A stretch of 64,000 bases of DNA from Balanoglossus misakiensis (lineage: Eukaryota > Animalia > Hemichordata), in assembly GCA_040954595.2 (NCBI GenBank), contig CM082581.2, positions 12,026,286 through 12,090,285 on the forward strand, read 5' to 3'. The position numbers and the translations under genes were made by a program. The notes beneath the pieces were generated by a model. That model made no database searches, was not told the DNA's origin, and worked only from the letters and a program-made list of their open reading frames with translations. Each line of letters opens with the position of its first letter. Position 1 is the stretch's first letter. Positions 45,767-52,393 of the stretch are shown here, one piece after another.

Positions 45767-47199
45767 CTATTTTTTAGGCTCTAGTTTTGAAGAGATGACT
45801 GTTTTTTCTTGGGATGGTTTATAGGTGACAGTATGGACAGGACTGAGAGTACCGTCCCACAGAGTTGGTTCTAGGTCCTGCAGAAATCTCTCAAAATGTG
45901 GCATACTGCTTATGCTCTCAGAGGAATGACTGGACTGGACTTTGCTGTGGTCCTGGGGAGATCCGTTGTCACTGTAATCTAAACACTCTTCGTGATCAAA
46001 TTCATTCATATCCTGCAAATCTTCCCCCACTTCGTCCTCCTCCTCGTAAAATTGTCCGAACATAGGATCGTCTTCATATATCTCAGAATACGGCCGTTTG
46101 TGGCCATCTTCAGAGATTGACTCGGTGGCCCTGCGAAGTTCCTCCTCGTCAATGATTGGTTGACCAGATTCGCCCACCTGGTTTTTCGCCAGCCACTCCT
46201 CAATGAGCCTGTAATCTTTCTCGTCCATGCCGGCCAGACCTTGGTTCACCTGTGACACGTGAGCAGGTCGTTGATTGACCTGTTGGTAATTTGAGGGTGG
46301 CATGTTGCATCGCTGCACAGGATAGATTCTCATGTCGTTTCCTAGTGTTGCCGTACACGACTGGGGTAGGTTGATGATCTTTGCAGTGTCGGGTGAAGAG
46401 GTGATGATGTGGCCAGTGTTGAGAGGCAGCTTGTTCACTGCTGATGAACTGACAATATATGTACCCTTAGGATGACCTTGGTAATGGAGTAGCTGTTGAA
46501 AGATATCAGTCATGAAATTTATGTTTTCATTTACAAATTGCTTTGGCTAATTCGACCAATAGATGCACAATTAAAACAAAGAATTTTACCGGTGGTGGCG
46601 CACTCACACTCCCTGGTTGGACCAGTCTGATTGTCTGTCCAGTCGTCGGTCCCTGTCTCAAGACGGTTGTTCCAGAATGGAGAAGAGGGGTGGGCGTAGG
46701 TACTTGTCCATGTGTTGCGACAGGCCCTGTCAATAAAACATGAATACAAAGACTGGTTAGATACGAAATGGTAAAAGAACACCGAATTAAAAATATGATA
46801 AAAGTGAAATTATAAAACATACGCATTCCGCTCATTGTTGAAGTGGGTGTATAACCCGATGCGATCCGTATTCCTGTCGCTGGTATCGTGTATCTGTTGG
46901 TTGTCATGGAGACAGCGTCTACACTAGAGTAAGGTGTTTGTTGATAGGTCGGAAGTCCAGTGCTCACTGACGGGATGGTCCTCTGAGTAAACATAGGATT
47001 CATTGGTATGATTGAATTCAAACGCCGTCTTTTGGGGGGCCTTGGTTGGTAAACCCATCCTGAAAAAATAATATTATGGTGTCAGCGATTGGTATTTTGT
47101 TTAGGGGTTTGATACACGTGCCTCTGGGTTGCTAGGAAATGTGATATCTTAGGCAAATATTTTGTTTTGGTTGATTGACTGTTATTTGTGATGATGATA

Positions 47200-47252
<53 letters not shown>

Positions 47253-48243: not shown

Positions 48244-49670
48244 TGAACTGCACAAATGTTCTCCTGTGCCCCGCTTCCACGATGACAATAACACAAAGAC
48301 AATCGAAACGTAGAACAATTGTGTCCAGGTCTTGTTCTCGAACTTCAAGGGACGCGCGTCAATGTGTGATGTCATCGCTAGGAACATAAAATGCCCACAT
48401 TGACACACACCGACATGACTCTCGTGTTGAACATAGCTCAAACTTGGAAATGACAAGTATAGTGTGGTATAGTGTGCTCGAAAATACTCTTTTCAAACTT
48501 TATCAGAACCAGGGCCAGGGGCGCACGTGCAGGGCGTGTGGTTTTTCATGCACTGGAGGTTGTACGATTTCATGCGATGAAAATATATTTACTAGGAAAT
48601 ATATTTCCATAAATTAAAGTGATGAATATTGCAACAATTAGCTTGCAATATATGAAGACTAGATGGACATATCAGGACTCCTAAAAATATGTACATGTAG
48701 TTGAGAAATCCACCCCAACAGCTATTAAAAAGCGCCCAAATCCAGAAAAGGTCAAAAGTTCACTTAATTTTCCCACGGAATAACGAATGCGATTGCTGTT
48801 AAGCAGGATCCCCTGGGAGTGAGCTCTATGTGTTGTTAGTTGCAACATTGTGTCCACAGGATGTACGCTTTGTTACATGTTGAAATTTGACACGATTGGC
48901 AGATAACTAGGATACGCCCACATCCGATTTATTTGCATATGAATAGAGAATACGCCACCCGGGTTGGTCCAAAGTTCCTGAGCTTTTTGATTGACAGCAA
49001 TATATCGTTACAAGAAGATTTATTTCTTGAAATCTCCACAGACGACACCATAGACAGCCAGTCACCCGGAGCGGGAAGACGTGATATTTGTTGCCTAAAT
49101 TTGACAAATTGTGACTATTAATAAGTTCTCTGATATTCGATTTCCAGTGGATATATTTGATCAGTACAGGGTACGTATTCTATCAATCTCAATGTTTTCG
49201 ATTGGCAATTATGCAGTGCGCGTGTATTTTTATTTTACGCGCTAAAACACTCAGTGACAATGTTTGTCCAGTCTGTTCTGTCACAGCCGATCGTTATTAT
49301 TTTCCCATTGGAAATATCGTCGTGAACATGTGCCAACATTTGCATAACGTTCTAGAGTTTGAAATGTTATCTATAAATGTGAGTATTACTGAAAATATAT
49401 CAAAACGTTTCAGTCATCATATTCTACATGATAAACAAATAAGCAGCCAACTCGTCTGGAATCTCGAGTTATGTTCAAAATTTGTGCGGAGAGTGCAGTG
49501 TAGTGATTTTTGCGTAGTCTCCTGGACTTGATCGGATTGCAACATACAACGAAAATATGTCATATTTCATTAGGATTTTCTGTGTACTATTGCACTGGAA
49601 ATCGATCAACAACAAAAAGATCGCTGAAATTCGCAATTATGGGCACTCAGTTACATTTTACATACAGAGA
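48244..49670. promoter_or_regulatory. Shared divergent (candidate bidirectional) promoter region of SoxH and Dmrt
   Basis: Head-to-head start codons ~1.4 kb apart. DM-site-like GCAACATTGTGTC (48842-48854) and GTTACATGTTG (48872-48882). SOX-type AACAAT at ~48314 and 48633. Regulatory function is inferred. Confidence 0.5.
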
Positions 49671-52393
49671 ATGGAGGAAGATTCGTACGTGTTCAAGACC
49701 ATCAAGGCGAAGTCGCCAACATGTGCCAGATGTAGAAATCATGGCGTCGTCGTCATGCTGAAAGGTCACAAAAGGGAATGTCCTTACAAACAATGCGAAT
49801 GTACTTATTGTGGTTTAATAGGGTAAGTGTGACATCACTATGGATTTATAGCGGTAAATCAGTCTTCCACTTTTATCCAAATGCATGATCGACAGCACGC
49901 TGCGTAAAATAAGGCCGTTGTCAAGGGCCGTTGTGTACCGTGGCCGTGTGGTCTTGCGTCACACTCACATGGCTGTTGAAATCTTTGCAGACATAATGGC
50001 TCACATCACCAAATGTACTTGTGGTAACATTCATTTTTCTGATCCAAGACTCACTTTTTGTCAGGTGATCCTTGTTGGGGGGGGGGGGGGAGGGGGAGTT
50101 CAAGATTGAAAGTGATGAGTTAATTTGGCTTTTGGTATTGTACATGCAATGAATGAAAAAGAAAATTATTCAACTGACCACTATGAACAAAATTCAGAAT
50201 TTTCTGAAATGTGAGAATGACCAAATCATCCTTTGAACGTATTACACCTACAGGGAGAGACGACGGATCATGGCTGCCCAGGTTGCCGTCCGACGTCAAC
50301 AAGACACACAGAAAAGACAACTAGCTATTAAGACTGAATCAAATTATTACCGAAGAAGAGTTATTAAAAAGAAGAAAACATCAGGTAGAAGGGATGATTT
50401 ATTTCAATTTGACAAAAGGGTGGCTTTCTGCATAGATCTTTTTGACTTTGAGAAGAGGATAGTTTATGAAGCAAGTAAAGTTTTTGAATTCATGTATTAT
50501 GTGGTATATATGTTCAAATATCTGTTACAATTGTTTATTTTCTATAGATCAGTCTCCTCCAAACATTCCCGAAGAAGTTTTTAATGAAGTCAGTGCAGAG
50601 AGTAGGCTAACAAATAGAACGCCAAGTAGCACTTTGAGTTCAACATCTGGAATTCCACAAGATCAGCCTCTAGATGCTGACAGCGTATGTATTTTGTCAA
50701 ACTTGACTCAGTTAAACTTGCTTCAGCTAAAAATGAATGTAAGTGGATGTACAGAAATTGTGCAGAAGTATTCATTCTGCAGAGCCTCAGGTTTTTGCTT
50801 TAGATATAATAATTTGCTTGAAAAAACTGAGTTGGCAGAACAAGAATGATATAAATTGGAACACAATGAACTCGACACAGAGTATAACAATTTTGTTCAT
50901 GTCACCAGTTTCAGGATCACCTAGATCAGCTGGCTGCAATGACCAACCAAGGCAAGAAAGCCAACACCAATGTTGGTTTCAATTGGCCATCCAATCAGAA
51001 CACACTTTCACAGCTAGCTTGTATCTTCCCAGAACACAGCCCTGAACTACTGCAGCATGTCTTGGGTAAGTGGCTATGCCACACTGAAAACAACCTGTTG
51101 CATTCTTGTCCCATTTGGGGGTTTGGTGTGATAGGTAATCATCGTTAGAATAAACCTGTGACAATATTGTCTACATGATACACTGGTTTTGATGAAACCC
51201 TTAGTCCAGTCAGTCTCAGAGTATGTTTTACTTCTACCTATGTTCTGAATTTCTGTTGGTGGTCTTCAGGAATGTTCCTGTTTGTTGCCATTGAAAATAT
51301 TTTGACTTTAACTTGTTTTGTATAGTAACATGATTGTATGATTTGATTTCTTTTTCTTTGTATCTTGCCAGATACCTTCAACAATGATGTTGCAAGAGCT
51401 ATCGCCTTACTTCTATCAGGAGGCCCTGCAATACATCCTGGATTACAACTACAGCAACCACTGTCACAAAACGGAAACTCGTGTATGATGCAAGCAGGCG
51501 GACCACAAGTCCTGCAGCCCATCCCTGTGCAGGCGTTGCCTCCAAACAGTGGTTTCATCAACCTCTCACAGCTGGCAACATCACAGGCCACCAATACTGG
51601 CAGCTACACTGCCATGCAGCCACAGGTCCAGATGTCTTCAGCCAGCTGTAGCTATGTCACACCACCAAATCCAAACATCCAACAGGTAAACTGCATCCTG
51701 CGAGCTTCGTTTTATTGGCACTCAAAAGGGGCATATGTTATGCACAGCTAACATCTCGGTGGAACCAGAATTTGGGTTGAGCTAGTTAAAGACACATGAA
51801 GGTGACAAAATGTTTACTCTCGATATTCTGTTCTCTCTCCATCAGTTCAGTCATCTGAAACCAACAGCTCCCAAATGTGGATACACAGCGAGATCTATAG
51901 CCTTCGGTGGAGCTGTCACTACTAGCAACCAGGGAGTTGTCATGCCAGCAATGTTTCCAAGTCACAGCATGGACAGTGGGCCAGCCTGCTTTCCCGAAAT
52001 GGCCAAGTCTTGTTCACATGCTTCATCCTTTGGTGGTAGACAGTGTGATTTGGAGGATGTCCGATTCAACGCGGGTATGATCATCAAAACACAAAAGGAG
52101 ATTATGAAACCGTTGCTGATTTAATCGTGTCTGACAATAGCACTCTGAGTGTATGGATCTTGCAACTTAAATAAATTAAATACTGAATTCACAATATTTT
52201 TTTTCTTGTGTTTTCAGGCCAAACTCATCACCACACAGCAGCTGCCCATGCACTTGTATCACTGGGTTCGTCTCCGAGTTCCAAAACAGCCACAGCCACC
52301 AACTCCAGCGAGGAGAATGATCACGATATTTGTTCCAGTGACATCACCGTGTCCGAACTGGACAGTACACTAAGTGGATCTGAGGCCATATGA
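49671..52393 (+). CDS. Dmrt: Doublesex/mab-3-related (Dmrt) transcription factor with DM and divergent DMA domains, ~429 aa, 7 exons
   Basis: Exons: 49671-49822, 50254-50384, 50548-50684, 50915-51065, 51372-51685, 51846-52074, 52218-52393 (1290 nt, phases consistent). DM domain [56 protein letters not shown]-like [40 protein letters not shown]-rich C-terminus. Subfamily not assignable by eye. Confidence 0.9.

What the first reader, a model, noticed from the sequence alone, without database searches (positions are those of the whole stretch)
45767..52393. Head-to-head SoxH (SOX30) - Dmrt gene pair: candidate co-regulated male gonad / sex-differentiation cassette
Seen: an intact SoxH gene and an intact DM+DMA Dmrt gene are transcribed divergently with start codons only ~1.4 kb apart (48243 and 49671). 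A likely Dmrt 5'-UTR intron (donor 49171, acceptor 49667) would put the two transcription starts under ~1 kb apart. Established: SOX30 is required for spermiogenesis in vertebrates, SoxH and Dmrt genes are the recurrent testis-biased candidates in bivalve sex-determination models, and DM-domain genes control sexual differentiation across animals. Inference: two male-pathway transcription factors on one bidirectional promoter could act as a single switch or a sex-linked locus. I do not know of this arrangement being described, and human SOX30 is not next to a DMRT gene.
Basis: partly seen in the sequence, partly recalled or inferred. Interest (0 to 1): 0.88.

Follow-up and report, generated by a model that had tools for sequence, protein, structure and literature searches.

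The report
Acorn-worm head-to-head SoxH–Dmrt gene pair
Two intact transcription-factor genes, SoxH (SOX30) and a divergent Dmrt, point away from each other 1.4 kb apart in what is likely an acorn-worm genome; they likely share a promoter and act in developing sperm cells rather than deciding sex, and the Dmrt may be an old relative of the mammalian meiosis gene DMRT7.

Summary
An open 5-exon SoxH (662 aa, ATG 48243, minus) and an open 7-exon Dmrt (about 431 aa, ATG 49671, plus) diverge across 1,427 bp. The closest relatives are hemichordate (Saccoglossus SoxH; Ptychodera Dmrt, 51% over full length), so the bivalve framing is off. The DMA domain is degenerate. The Dmrt is not a standard Dmrt2, 3, 4/5 or 93B. 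Its best non-hemichordate match is an orphan amphioxus Dmrt, and three DM trees join it to amniote DMRT7/DMRTC2 (bootstrap 81-93; alternatives not rejected; DMRT1, dsx and Dmrt1L not in the trees). In amphioxus, SoxH and that Dmrt lie on a sequence of the same length (34,421,708 bp), so likely the same chromosome; distance unknown. Accession proxies show no adjacency in two molluscs, two starfish or monotremes. Another gene pair in the window is also head-to-head at 1 kb, so the spacing alone is ordinary. No expression data were available. Best reading: a male germ-cell (meiosis/spermiogenesis) pair on a shared promoter region (0.45); incidental neighbours 0.4; sex-determining switch about 0.05.

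The parts
47586..48243 (-). SoxH coding exon 1 (ATG 48243; Thr-rich N-terminus)
   Evidence: open model; aligns to Saccoglossus SoxH from residue 125
47259..47489 (-). SoxH exon 2, HMG box
   Evidence: Pfam HMG_box 8.9e-25; SOX30 104.7 bits vs SOX9 76.9; SoxH side of tree 100/99
46823..47059 (-). SoxH exon 3 (HMG tail, basic stretch)
46590..46726 (-). SoxH exon 4
   Evidence: predicted, keeps frame
45767..46492 (-). SoxH exon 5, acidic C-terminus and stop
   Evidence: 31% to Saccoglossus SoxH, E 1e-8
48244..49670 (.). Intergenic 1,427 bp, candidate shared promoter; CpG o/e 0.98
48840..48851 (+). DMRT-type binding site overlapping a SOX core (motif recalled; lead only)
   Evidence: only exact match among 11 near matches in 64 kb; shuffle P about 0.06, one of 13 motifs tried
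49171..49667 (+). Proposed Dmrt 5' intron (unverified)
   Evidence: splice ranks 2 of 90 and 5 of 74
49671..49822 (+). Dmrt coding exon 1: N-terminal FKTI motif and zinc module of the DM domain
   Evidence: Pfam DM 6.9e-18; 74% to Ptychodera P0121
50254..50384 (+). Dmrt exon 2: DM recognition helix; intron 1 (431 bp) splits the DM domain
50548..50684 (+). Dmrt exon 3 (3' end uncertain)
50909..51065 (+). Dmrt exon 4: first half of degenerate DMA/CUE
51372..51685 (+). Dmrt exon 5: rest of DMA/CUE, Pro/Gln-rich
   Evidence: 49% to P0121
51846..52074 (+). Dmrt exon 6
   Evidence: 39% to P0121
52218..52393 (+). Dmrt exon 7: short AAxAL-type helix motif and stop
   Evidence: 60% to P0121; motif survey

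Best explanation
SoxH and a divergent, possibly DMRT7-like Dmrt are transcribed in opposite directions from a 1.4 kb gap that likely works as one shared promoter region, likely switched on in male germ cells. Shown: both reading frames, the geometry, the SoxH identity, full-length orthology to a Ptychodera Dmrt, and a CpG-retaining zone over both 5' ends. Inferred: the region opens in spermatocytes; the Dmrt acts around meiosis, perhaps as a repressor through its C-terminal helix and perhaps binding the DMRT-type site at 48840; SoxH then drives spermiogenesis genes. On this reading it is a sperm-differentiation pair and not a sex-determining switch.
For: Both starts are likely under about 930 bp apart if the 5' exon is real. 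CpG o/e is 0.98-1.01 from 46.8 to 50.0 kb and 0.34 in the Dmrt body, as expected for one unmethylated region over both starts (inference). SoxH relatives are testis or spermatid genes. DM trees join the Dmrt to DMRTC2 at 93/98, 93/86 and 81/76. A Thr before the first Cys plus ERRR occurs in 32 of 32 DMRTC2 and 3 of 119 other DM proteins. Mouse Dmrt7 has nine exons with ATG and DM in exons 2-3 and acts in pachytene spermatocytes (PMC1853120), the layout proposed here. Amphioxus SoxH and the matching Dmrt share a contig length.
Against: There are no expression, TSS or chromatin data. A DM13/DOMON gene and a DEAH helicase in the same window are also head-to-head (993 bp) with CpG o/e 1.0 between them, so neither sign is specific. 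AU tests do not reject joining the Dmrt to 93B (p 0.12), 4/5 (0.103) or amphioxus alone (0.106). The tree tool warned of long branches. P0121 has no PF15791 hit. The C-terminal motif scores -0.9 bits against a DMRTC2 profile. No adjacency by accession proxy in scallop, abalone, two starfish or monotremes. In scallop SoxH works independently of Dmrt1L. No promoter motif is convincingly enriched.
Confidence: 0.45

Rival explanations
1. The two genes are incidental neighbours in a tightly packed block, each with its own promoter. They may be old chromosome-mates, but the close contact is a local rearrangement with no shared control.
For: Five genes alternate in orientation with small gaps: 993 bp head-to-head, 378 bp tail-to-tail, 1,427 bp head-to-head, 2,946 bp tail-to-tail. 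No adjacency is seen in molluscs, starfish or monotremes. Two hemichordate genomes show no apparent microsynteny with each other (PMC11175523).
Against: A Dmrt being one of SoxH's two neighbours is unlikely by chance (roughly 2 x 6 / 30,000, my estimate, post hoc). Both families point to the testis. The amphioxus orthologs are linked.
Confidence: 0.4
2. The pair is a sex-determining or sex-linked switch.
For: Dmrt-1L and Sox-H are proposed primary sex-determining genes in bivalves (PMC12530298). A divergent Dmrt is testis-high in sea cucumber and its knockdown raises foxl2 at later time points (PMC9894652).
Against: Scallop SoxH is confined to spermatids and sperm, and the authors find little support for a sex-determining role. 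Mouse Sox30 and Dmrt7 mutants show germ-cell arrest. Nothing in the window shows sex linkage.
Confidence: 0.05
3. On identity only: the Dmrt is a fast-evolving hemichordate/amphioxus orphan (for example an old 93B or 4/5 duplicate, or kin of Dmrt1L or the echinoderm Dsx-like genes), and its likeness to DMRT7 is long-branch attraction or convergence.
For: Only 59 columns; alternatives not rejected. It keeps a DMA remnant that DMRTC2 lacks. ERRR also occurs in ctenophore and amphioxus proteins, and a similar C-terminal helix occurs in cnidarian DMRT A. DMRT1, DMRTB1, dsx and Dmrt1L were not in the trees. DMRT7 is reported only in mammals and reptiles.
Against: The same grouping appears under two models and two taxon sets. 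DM identity is highest to DMRTC2 (38-41 of 59, against 34-37 for the four standard groups; one ctenophore protein 39). The exon layout matches mouse Dmrt7. Human DMRT1 and DMRTB1 lack both marker residues.
Confidence: 0.45

Closest known systems
SoxH / SOX30 (Saccoglossus XP_006815472.1; vertebrate SOX30)
   Same: HMG box 74-78% identical; intron at the end of the HMG box; similarity to Saccoglossus extends to the C-terminus (34% over about 500 aa).
   Different: No Dmrt neighbour is indicated for other SoxH genes by my proxies, apart from shared linkage in amphioxus.
Ptychodera flava Dmrt XP_070540797.1 and amphioxus Dmrt XP_035672131.1 / XP_066275364.1 (unassigned deuterostome Dmrt)
   Same: 51% over the full length to Ptychodera. 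F/YKTI before the DM in 7 of 151 DM proteins, all hemichordate or amphioxus; amphioxus is the best match outside the DM (25-29 bits, next 19.5).
   Different: Amphioxus keeps a canonical DMA (45.1 bits against 20.9 here); its distance from SoxH is unknown.
DMRT7 / DMRTC2 (amniote meiotic DM gene)
   Same: Two marker residues, DM split by an intron, probable extra 5' exon, a short C-terminal AAxAL-type helix, tree neighbour.
   Different: DMRTC2 has PF15791 and no DMA; it is on a different chromosome from SOX30 in platypus and echidna; orthology not established.
Mollusc Dmrt-1L and Sox-H (male-biased pair of candidates)
   Same: A fast-evolving Dmrt and SoxH, both linked to the male gonad.
   Different: Not adjacent by accession proxy in Pecten maximus or Haliotis rufescens; Dmrt-1L is described as mollusc-specific; not placed in my trees.

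Membership tests
Sox group H | HMG box with the RPMNAFMVW signature | tested here: met
Sox group H | HMG box groups with SOX30/SoxH, apart from SoxB and SoxE | tested here: met
   100/99 split, 25 rows; SoxC, D and F not in the tree; top named hits are SOX30/SoxH
Sox group H | Testis-restricted expression | not testable with these tools
   no RNA holder listed
DMRT family | Intact DM domain (all zinc ligands plus recognition helix) | tested here: met
DMA-bearing Dmrt3 / 4-5 / 93B | DMA domain above the Pfam cut-off | tested here: not met
   P0121 19.8 < 23; window exon no hit; remnant detected by own profile
DMA-bearing Dmrt3 / 4-5 / 93B | DM domain falls inside one of these clades | tested here: inconclusive
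   outside them in three trees but AU p 0.10-0.12 for 93B and 4/5; Dmrt2 and Dmrt3 not AU-tested
DMRT7 / DMRTC2 | DM domain clusters with DMRTC2 | tested here: inconclusive
   93/98, 93/86, 81/76, never starred; long-branch warning
DMRT7 / DMRTC2 | C-terminal DMRT-like domain PF15791 | tested here: not met
   no hit for P0121 at E up to 10; motif profile -0.9 bits
DMRT7 / DMRTC2 | DM encoded by exons 2-3, same intron position | tested here: inconclusive
   layout agrees with PMC1853120 and with DM-region spans of 278-287 bp against 204 bp; exact position not available
DMRT7 / DMRTC2 | Conserved amniote flanking genes | not tested
   amniote neighbour lists are in figures that are not held
Bidirectional-promoter gene pair | Two divergent TSSs within about 1 kb (definition recalled) | tested here: inconclusive
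   under about 930 bp only if the 5' exon is real
Bidirectional-promoter gene pair | Shared elements drive both genes; co-expression | not testable with these tools
   needs CAGE, RNA-seq or a reporter
Sex-determining locus | Sex linkage and early sex-specific action | not testable with these tools
   no population or expression data

The most novel reading that the evidence does not exclude
DMRT7, so far reported only in mammals and reptiles, descends from an old deuterostome gene kept in acorn worms and amphioxus. That gene sat beside SoxH/SOX30 as a co-regulated meiosis-to-spermiogenesis module that vertebrates later split onto different chromosomes.
Probability: 0.2. Interest if true: 0.72.

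Novelty: new variant of a known kind. Interest (0 to 1): 0.45.

Why it matters
If co-regulated, this is a compact, directly testable switch for two sperm-differentiation factors in a phylum with almost no reproductive genetics. If the Dmrt is a DMRT7 ortholog, the gene's origin moves from amniotes back to early deuterostomes and predates mammalian sex-chromosome silencing, a question left open in 10.64898/2026.07.14.738559. PMC6737965 left DMRT7 out of its trees and listed intron-bearing Saccoglossus and amphioxus Dmrts as unassigned, so the link was not tested there. If neither holds, these are two ordinary genes that happen to be neighbours.

Tried and rejected
No whole genome is held. No RNA holder was listed; this is no evidence either way. 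The metagenome scan with a SoxH alignment covered 21 of 64 parts and kept the best 80 of 522 matches; only about 5 are SoxH-like, and none of the 80 has a DM match. Flanks are short (0.3-10 kb upstream), so this is weak. Ptychodera SoxH was not among the 120 listed of 237 hits nor recognised among the 150 representatives, so adjacency in the nearest relative is untested. The Saccoglossus candidate has only a JGI id and could not be set against the SoxH accession. Promoter scan of 13 recalled motifs: octamer P 0.012, DMRT half-site 0.038, GC box 0.05, full DMRT site 0.06; several patterns counted each site twice, and none is convincing after 13 tests. The dsx-type pattern has 8 matches in the window against 14 expected. 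The C-terminal motif was rejected as stand-alone proof of DMRT7 kinship. The starfish 'novel' Dmrt class lacks both marker residues and was not taken as the ortholog. The ESM Atlas returned only generic DM+DMA clusters. A Pfam scan of 124 other ORFs found no further Sox or Dmrt. Three look-ups of earlier findings returned nothing. The supplement of PMC10428544 could not be read; bioRxiv supplements and Table S6 of PMC12530298 were not seen and may hold coordinates that bear on synteny.
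Full report
Observation. The sequence holds two intact genes in divergent orientation. On the minus strand, five exons from ATG 48243 to the stop at 45767 give a 662-aa protein, the only open one of four donor combinations. Its HMG exon scores 87.4 bits on Pfam, matches SOX30 far better than SOX9 or SOX2 among solved structures (104.7 against 76.9 and 67.2 bits), and falls on the SoxH side of a 100/99 split in a 25-row tree with SoxB and SoxE outgroups. 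On the plus strand, seven exons from ATG 49671 to 52393 give about 431 aa; twelve splice combinations are open and differ by a few residues. The gap between the ATGs is 1,427 bp.

Source. The best SoxH hit is Saccoglossus XP_006815472.1, similar also in the C-terminus. The best Dmrt hit is Ptychodera flava XP_070540797.1, 51% identical over the whole length. The animal is therefore most likely an enteropneust hemichordate (inference), not a mollusc.

What the Dmrt is. The DMA is a remnant. Among 151 DM proteins collected (a set biased to hits of the Ptychodera protein), a profile of the region after the DM finds five amphioxus proteins best (25-29 bits, next 19.5), and only these five, Ptychodera and the window carry F/YKTI before the DM. 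That supports a hemichordate-amphioxus ortholog pair. In DM trees of 59 columns the two hemichordate rows join amniote DMRTC2 (DMRT7): 93/98 with 43 rows; 93/86 and 81/76 with 27 rows under two models, with amphioxus next (97/92 and 89/92). No hemichordate + DMRTC2 branch is starred, the tool warns of long branches, and AU tests do not reject three alternatives (p 0.10-0.12). DMRT1, DMRTB1, dsx and Dmrt1L were not available as stored proteins and are absent from the trees; rows were picked by me from the hits. Two marker residues (Thr before the first Cys; ERRR) are in 32 of 32 DMRTC2 and 3 of 119 others (window, Ptychodera, unnamed P0122); ten amphioxus and ctenophore-cluster proteins have Met plus ERRR. 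Sea-urchin and crinoid Dsx-like proteins show similar residues in a supplement. Mouse Dmrt7 has nine exons with the start and DM in exons 2-3; the window's gene would have eight with the same start. Against membership: no PF15791, and the C-terminal helix scores below significance and also occurs in cnidarian DMRT A. That helix resembles Sin3-binding motifs (recalled, untested). I put DMRT7 kinship near even odds.

Is the pairing conserved? The amphioxus SoxH XP_078587832.1 lies on a contig of 34,421,708 bp. The matching Dmrt cluster, which includes XP_078587352/3, has a longest contig of exactly that length. The accessions differ by 480; Dmrt genes reported as clustered in Asterias rubens differ by up to 446, so this neither shows nor excludes closeness. 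Elsewhere the proxies say apart. Pecten maximus SoxH XP_033756818 is at least 17,900 numbers from its four Dmrts. Haliotis rufescens SoxH XP_046358520 is at least 13,800 from its two Dmrt-1L. A. rubens SoxH XP_033633082 and Acanthaster SoxH XP_022091786 are at least 3,400 and 2,500 from any of four Dmrts each. Platypus and echidna carry SOX30 and DMRTC2 on contigs of different length. Four sea urchins have no SoxH listed. Accession order is an indirect measure, and molluscs and starfish may lack the true ortholog. The nearest relatives could not be tested.

The gap. CpG o/e is about 1.0 from 46.8 to 50.0 kb and 0.34 over the rest of the Dmrt, consistent with one unmethylated region over both starts (inference). 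The same value is seen between a DM13/DOMON gene (ATG 35387, predicted) and a DEAH helicase (ATG 36381), which are head-to-head at 993 bp. Short divergent spacing is thus ordinary here. The proposed 5' intron has a good donor and a middling acceptor. The Arg codon just before the ATG matches the Arg before the equivalent Met in Ptychodera, whose protein starts three residues earlier, which fits an upstream exon without proving it. One DMRT-type site at 48840-48851 is the only exact match in the window; it is a lead.

Mechanism. SoxH relatives act late in sperm development: scallop knockdown cuts spermatids and leaves Dmrt1L unchanged; mouse nulls arrest at round spermatids; sea-cucumber SoxH is testis-specific. 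Mouse DMRT7 acts in pachytene spermatocytes. The most likely function is a germ-cell pair opened from one promoter region around meiosis (0.45). Incidental adjacency is nearly as likely (0.4). A sex-determining switch is unlikely (0.05).

Literature. Ten searches listed no paper on SoxH-Dmrt adjacency or on an invertebrate DMRT7; the library holds only open-licence papers. One supplement labels amphioxus XP_066275364, human DMRTC2, human DMRT1 and one other protein together as 'DMRT2L', a loose class and not an orthology claim. What I saw of each paper: PMC6737965, parts 1-2 of 4, supplement passages and supplement part 2; PMC10175285, parts 1-2 of 4 and six supplement rows; PMC11218330, passages, section 10 and two supplement rows; PMC13602260, passages and supplement rows; PMC10428544, part 2 of 5; passages only of PMC13219418, 10.1101/2024.06.12.598746, PMC10013865, PMC11175523, 10.64898/2026.07.14.738559, PMC12530298, PMC9894652 and PMC1853120; abstract of PMC5732304. 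The names DHX34-like and PGC-1-like for the neighbours and the DNA motifs are recalled.

Verdict. A real, apparently undescribed arrangement of two known gene types, with shared control unproven. The possible DMRT7 ancestry is the more interesting lead and can be settled with a coordinate look-up and one larger tree. Interest 0.45.

Noticed in passing
window 35387-36381: A DM13/DOMON gene (minus) and a DEAH/HA2 helicase (plus, DHX34-like by recall) are also head-to-head, 993 bp between predicted ATGs.
   Followed up: partly
window 45389-45766: Helicase stop (45388) and SoxH stop (45767) are 378 bp apart with AATAAA signals on both strands, so the 3' UTRs may overlap.
   Followed up: partly
window 55340 to beyond 61000, minus strand: RS-rich, RRM-bearing gene, PGC-1/PPARGC1-like by recalled motifs. 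From recall, human PPARGC1B and SOX30 are both on 5q, and DHX34 and DMRTC2 both on 19q13; not tested.
   Followed up: no
window 48939-48962: An ATG and eight codons end at a strong donor (48963) and would splice in frame to the Dmrt ATG exon; possible alternative first exon.
   Followed up: partly
window about 47190-47255 and about 50077-50096: A (GAT)n microsatellite in SoxH intron 2 and a G-run in Dmrt intron 1; the first could serve as a marker for sex-linkage tests.
   Followed up: no
proteins P0292, P0295, P0325, P0120, P0037: SoxH-like HMG boxes in a jellyfish (Sanderia) and related unnamed proteins fall on the SoxH side of the tree, suggesting SoxH predates bilaterians.
   Followed up: partly
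window 1-29000: No Pfam hit among ORFs of 75 aa or more; this half of the window was not annotated further.
   Followed up: no
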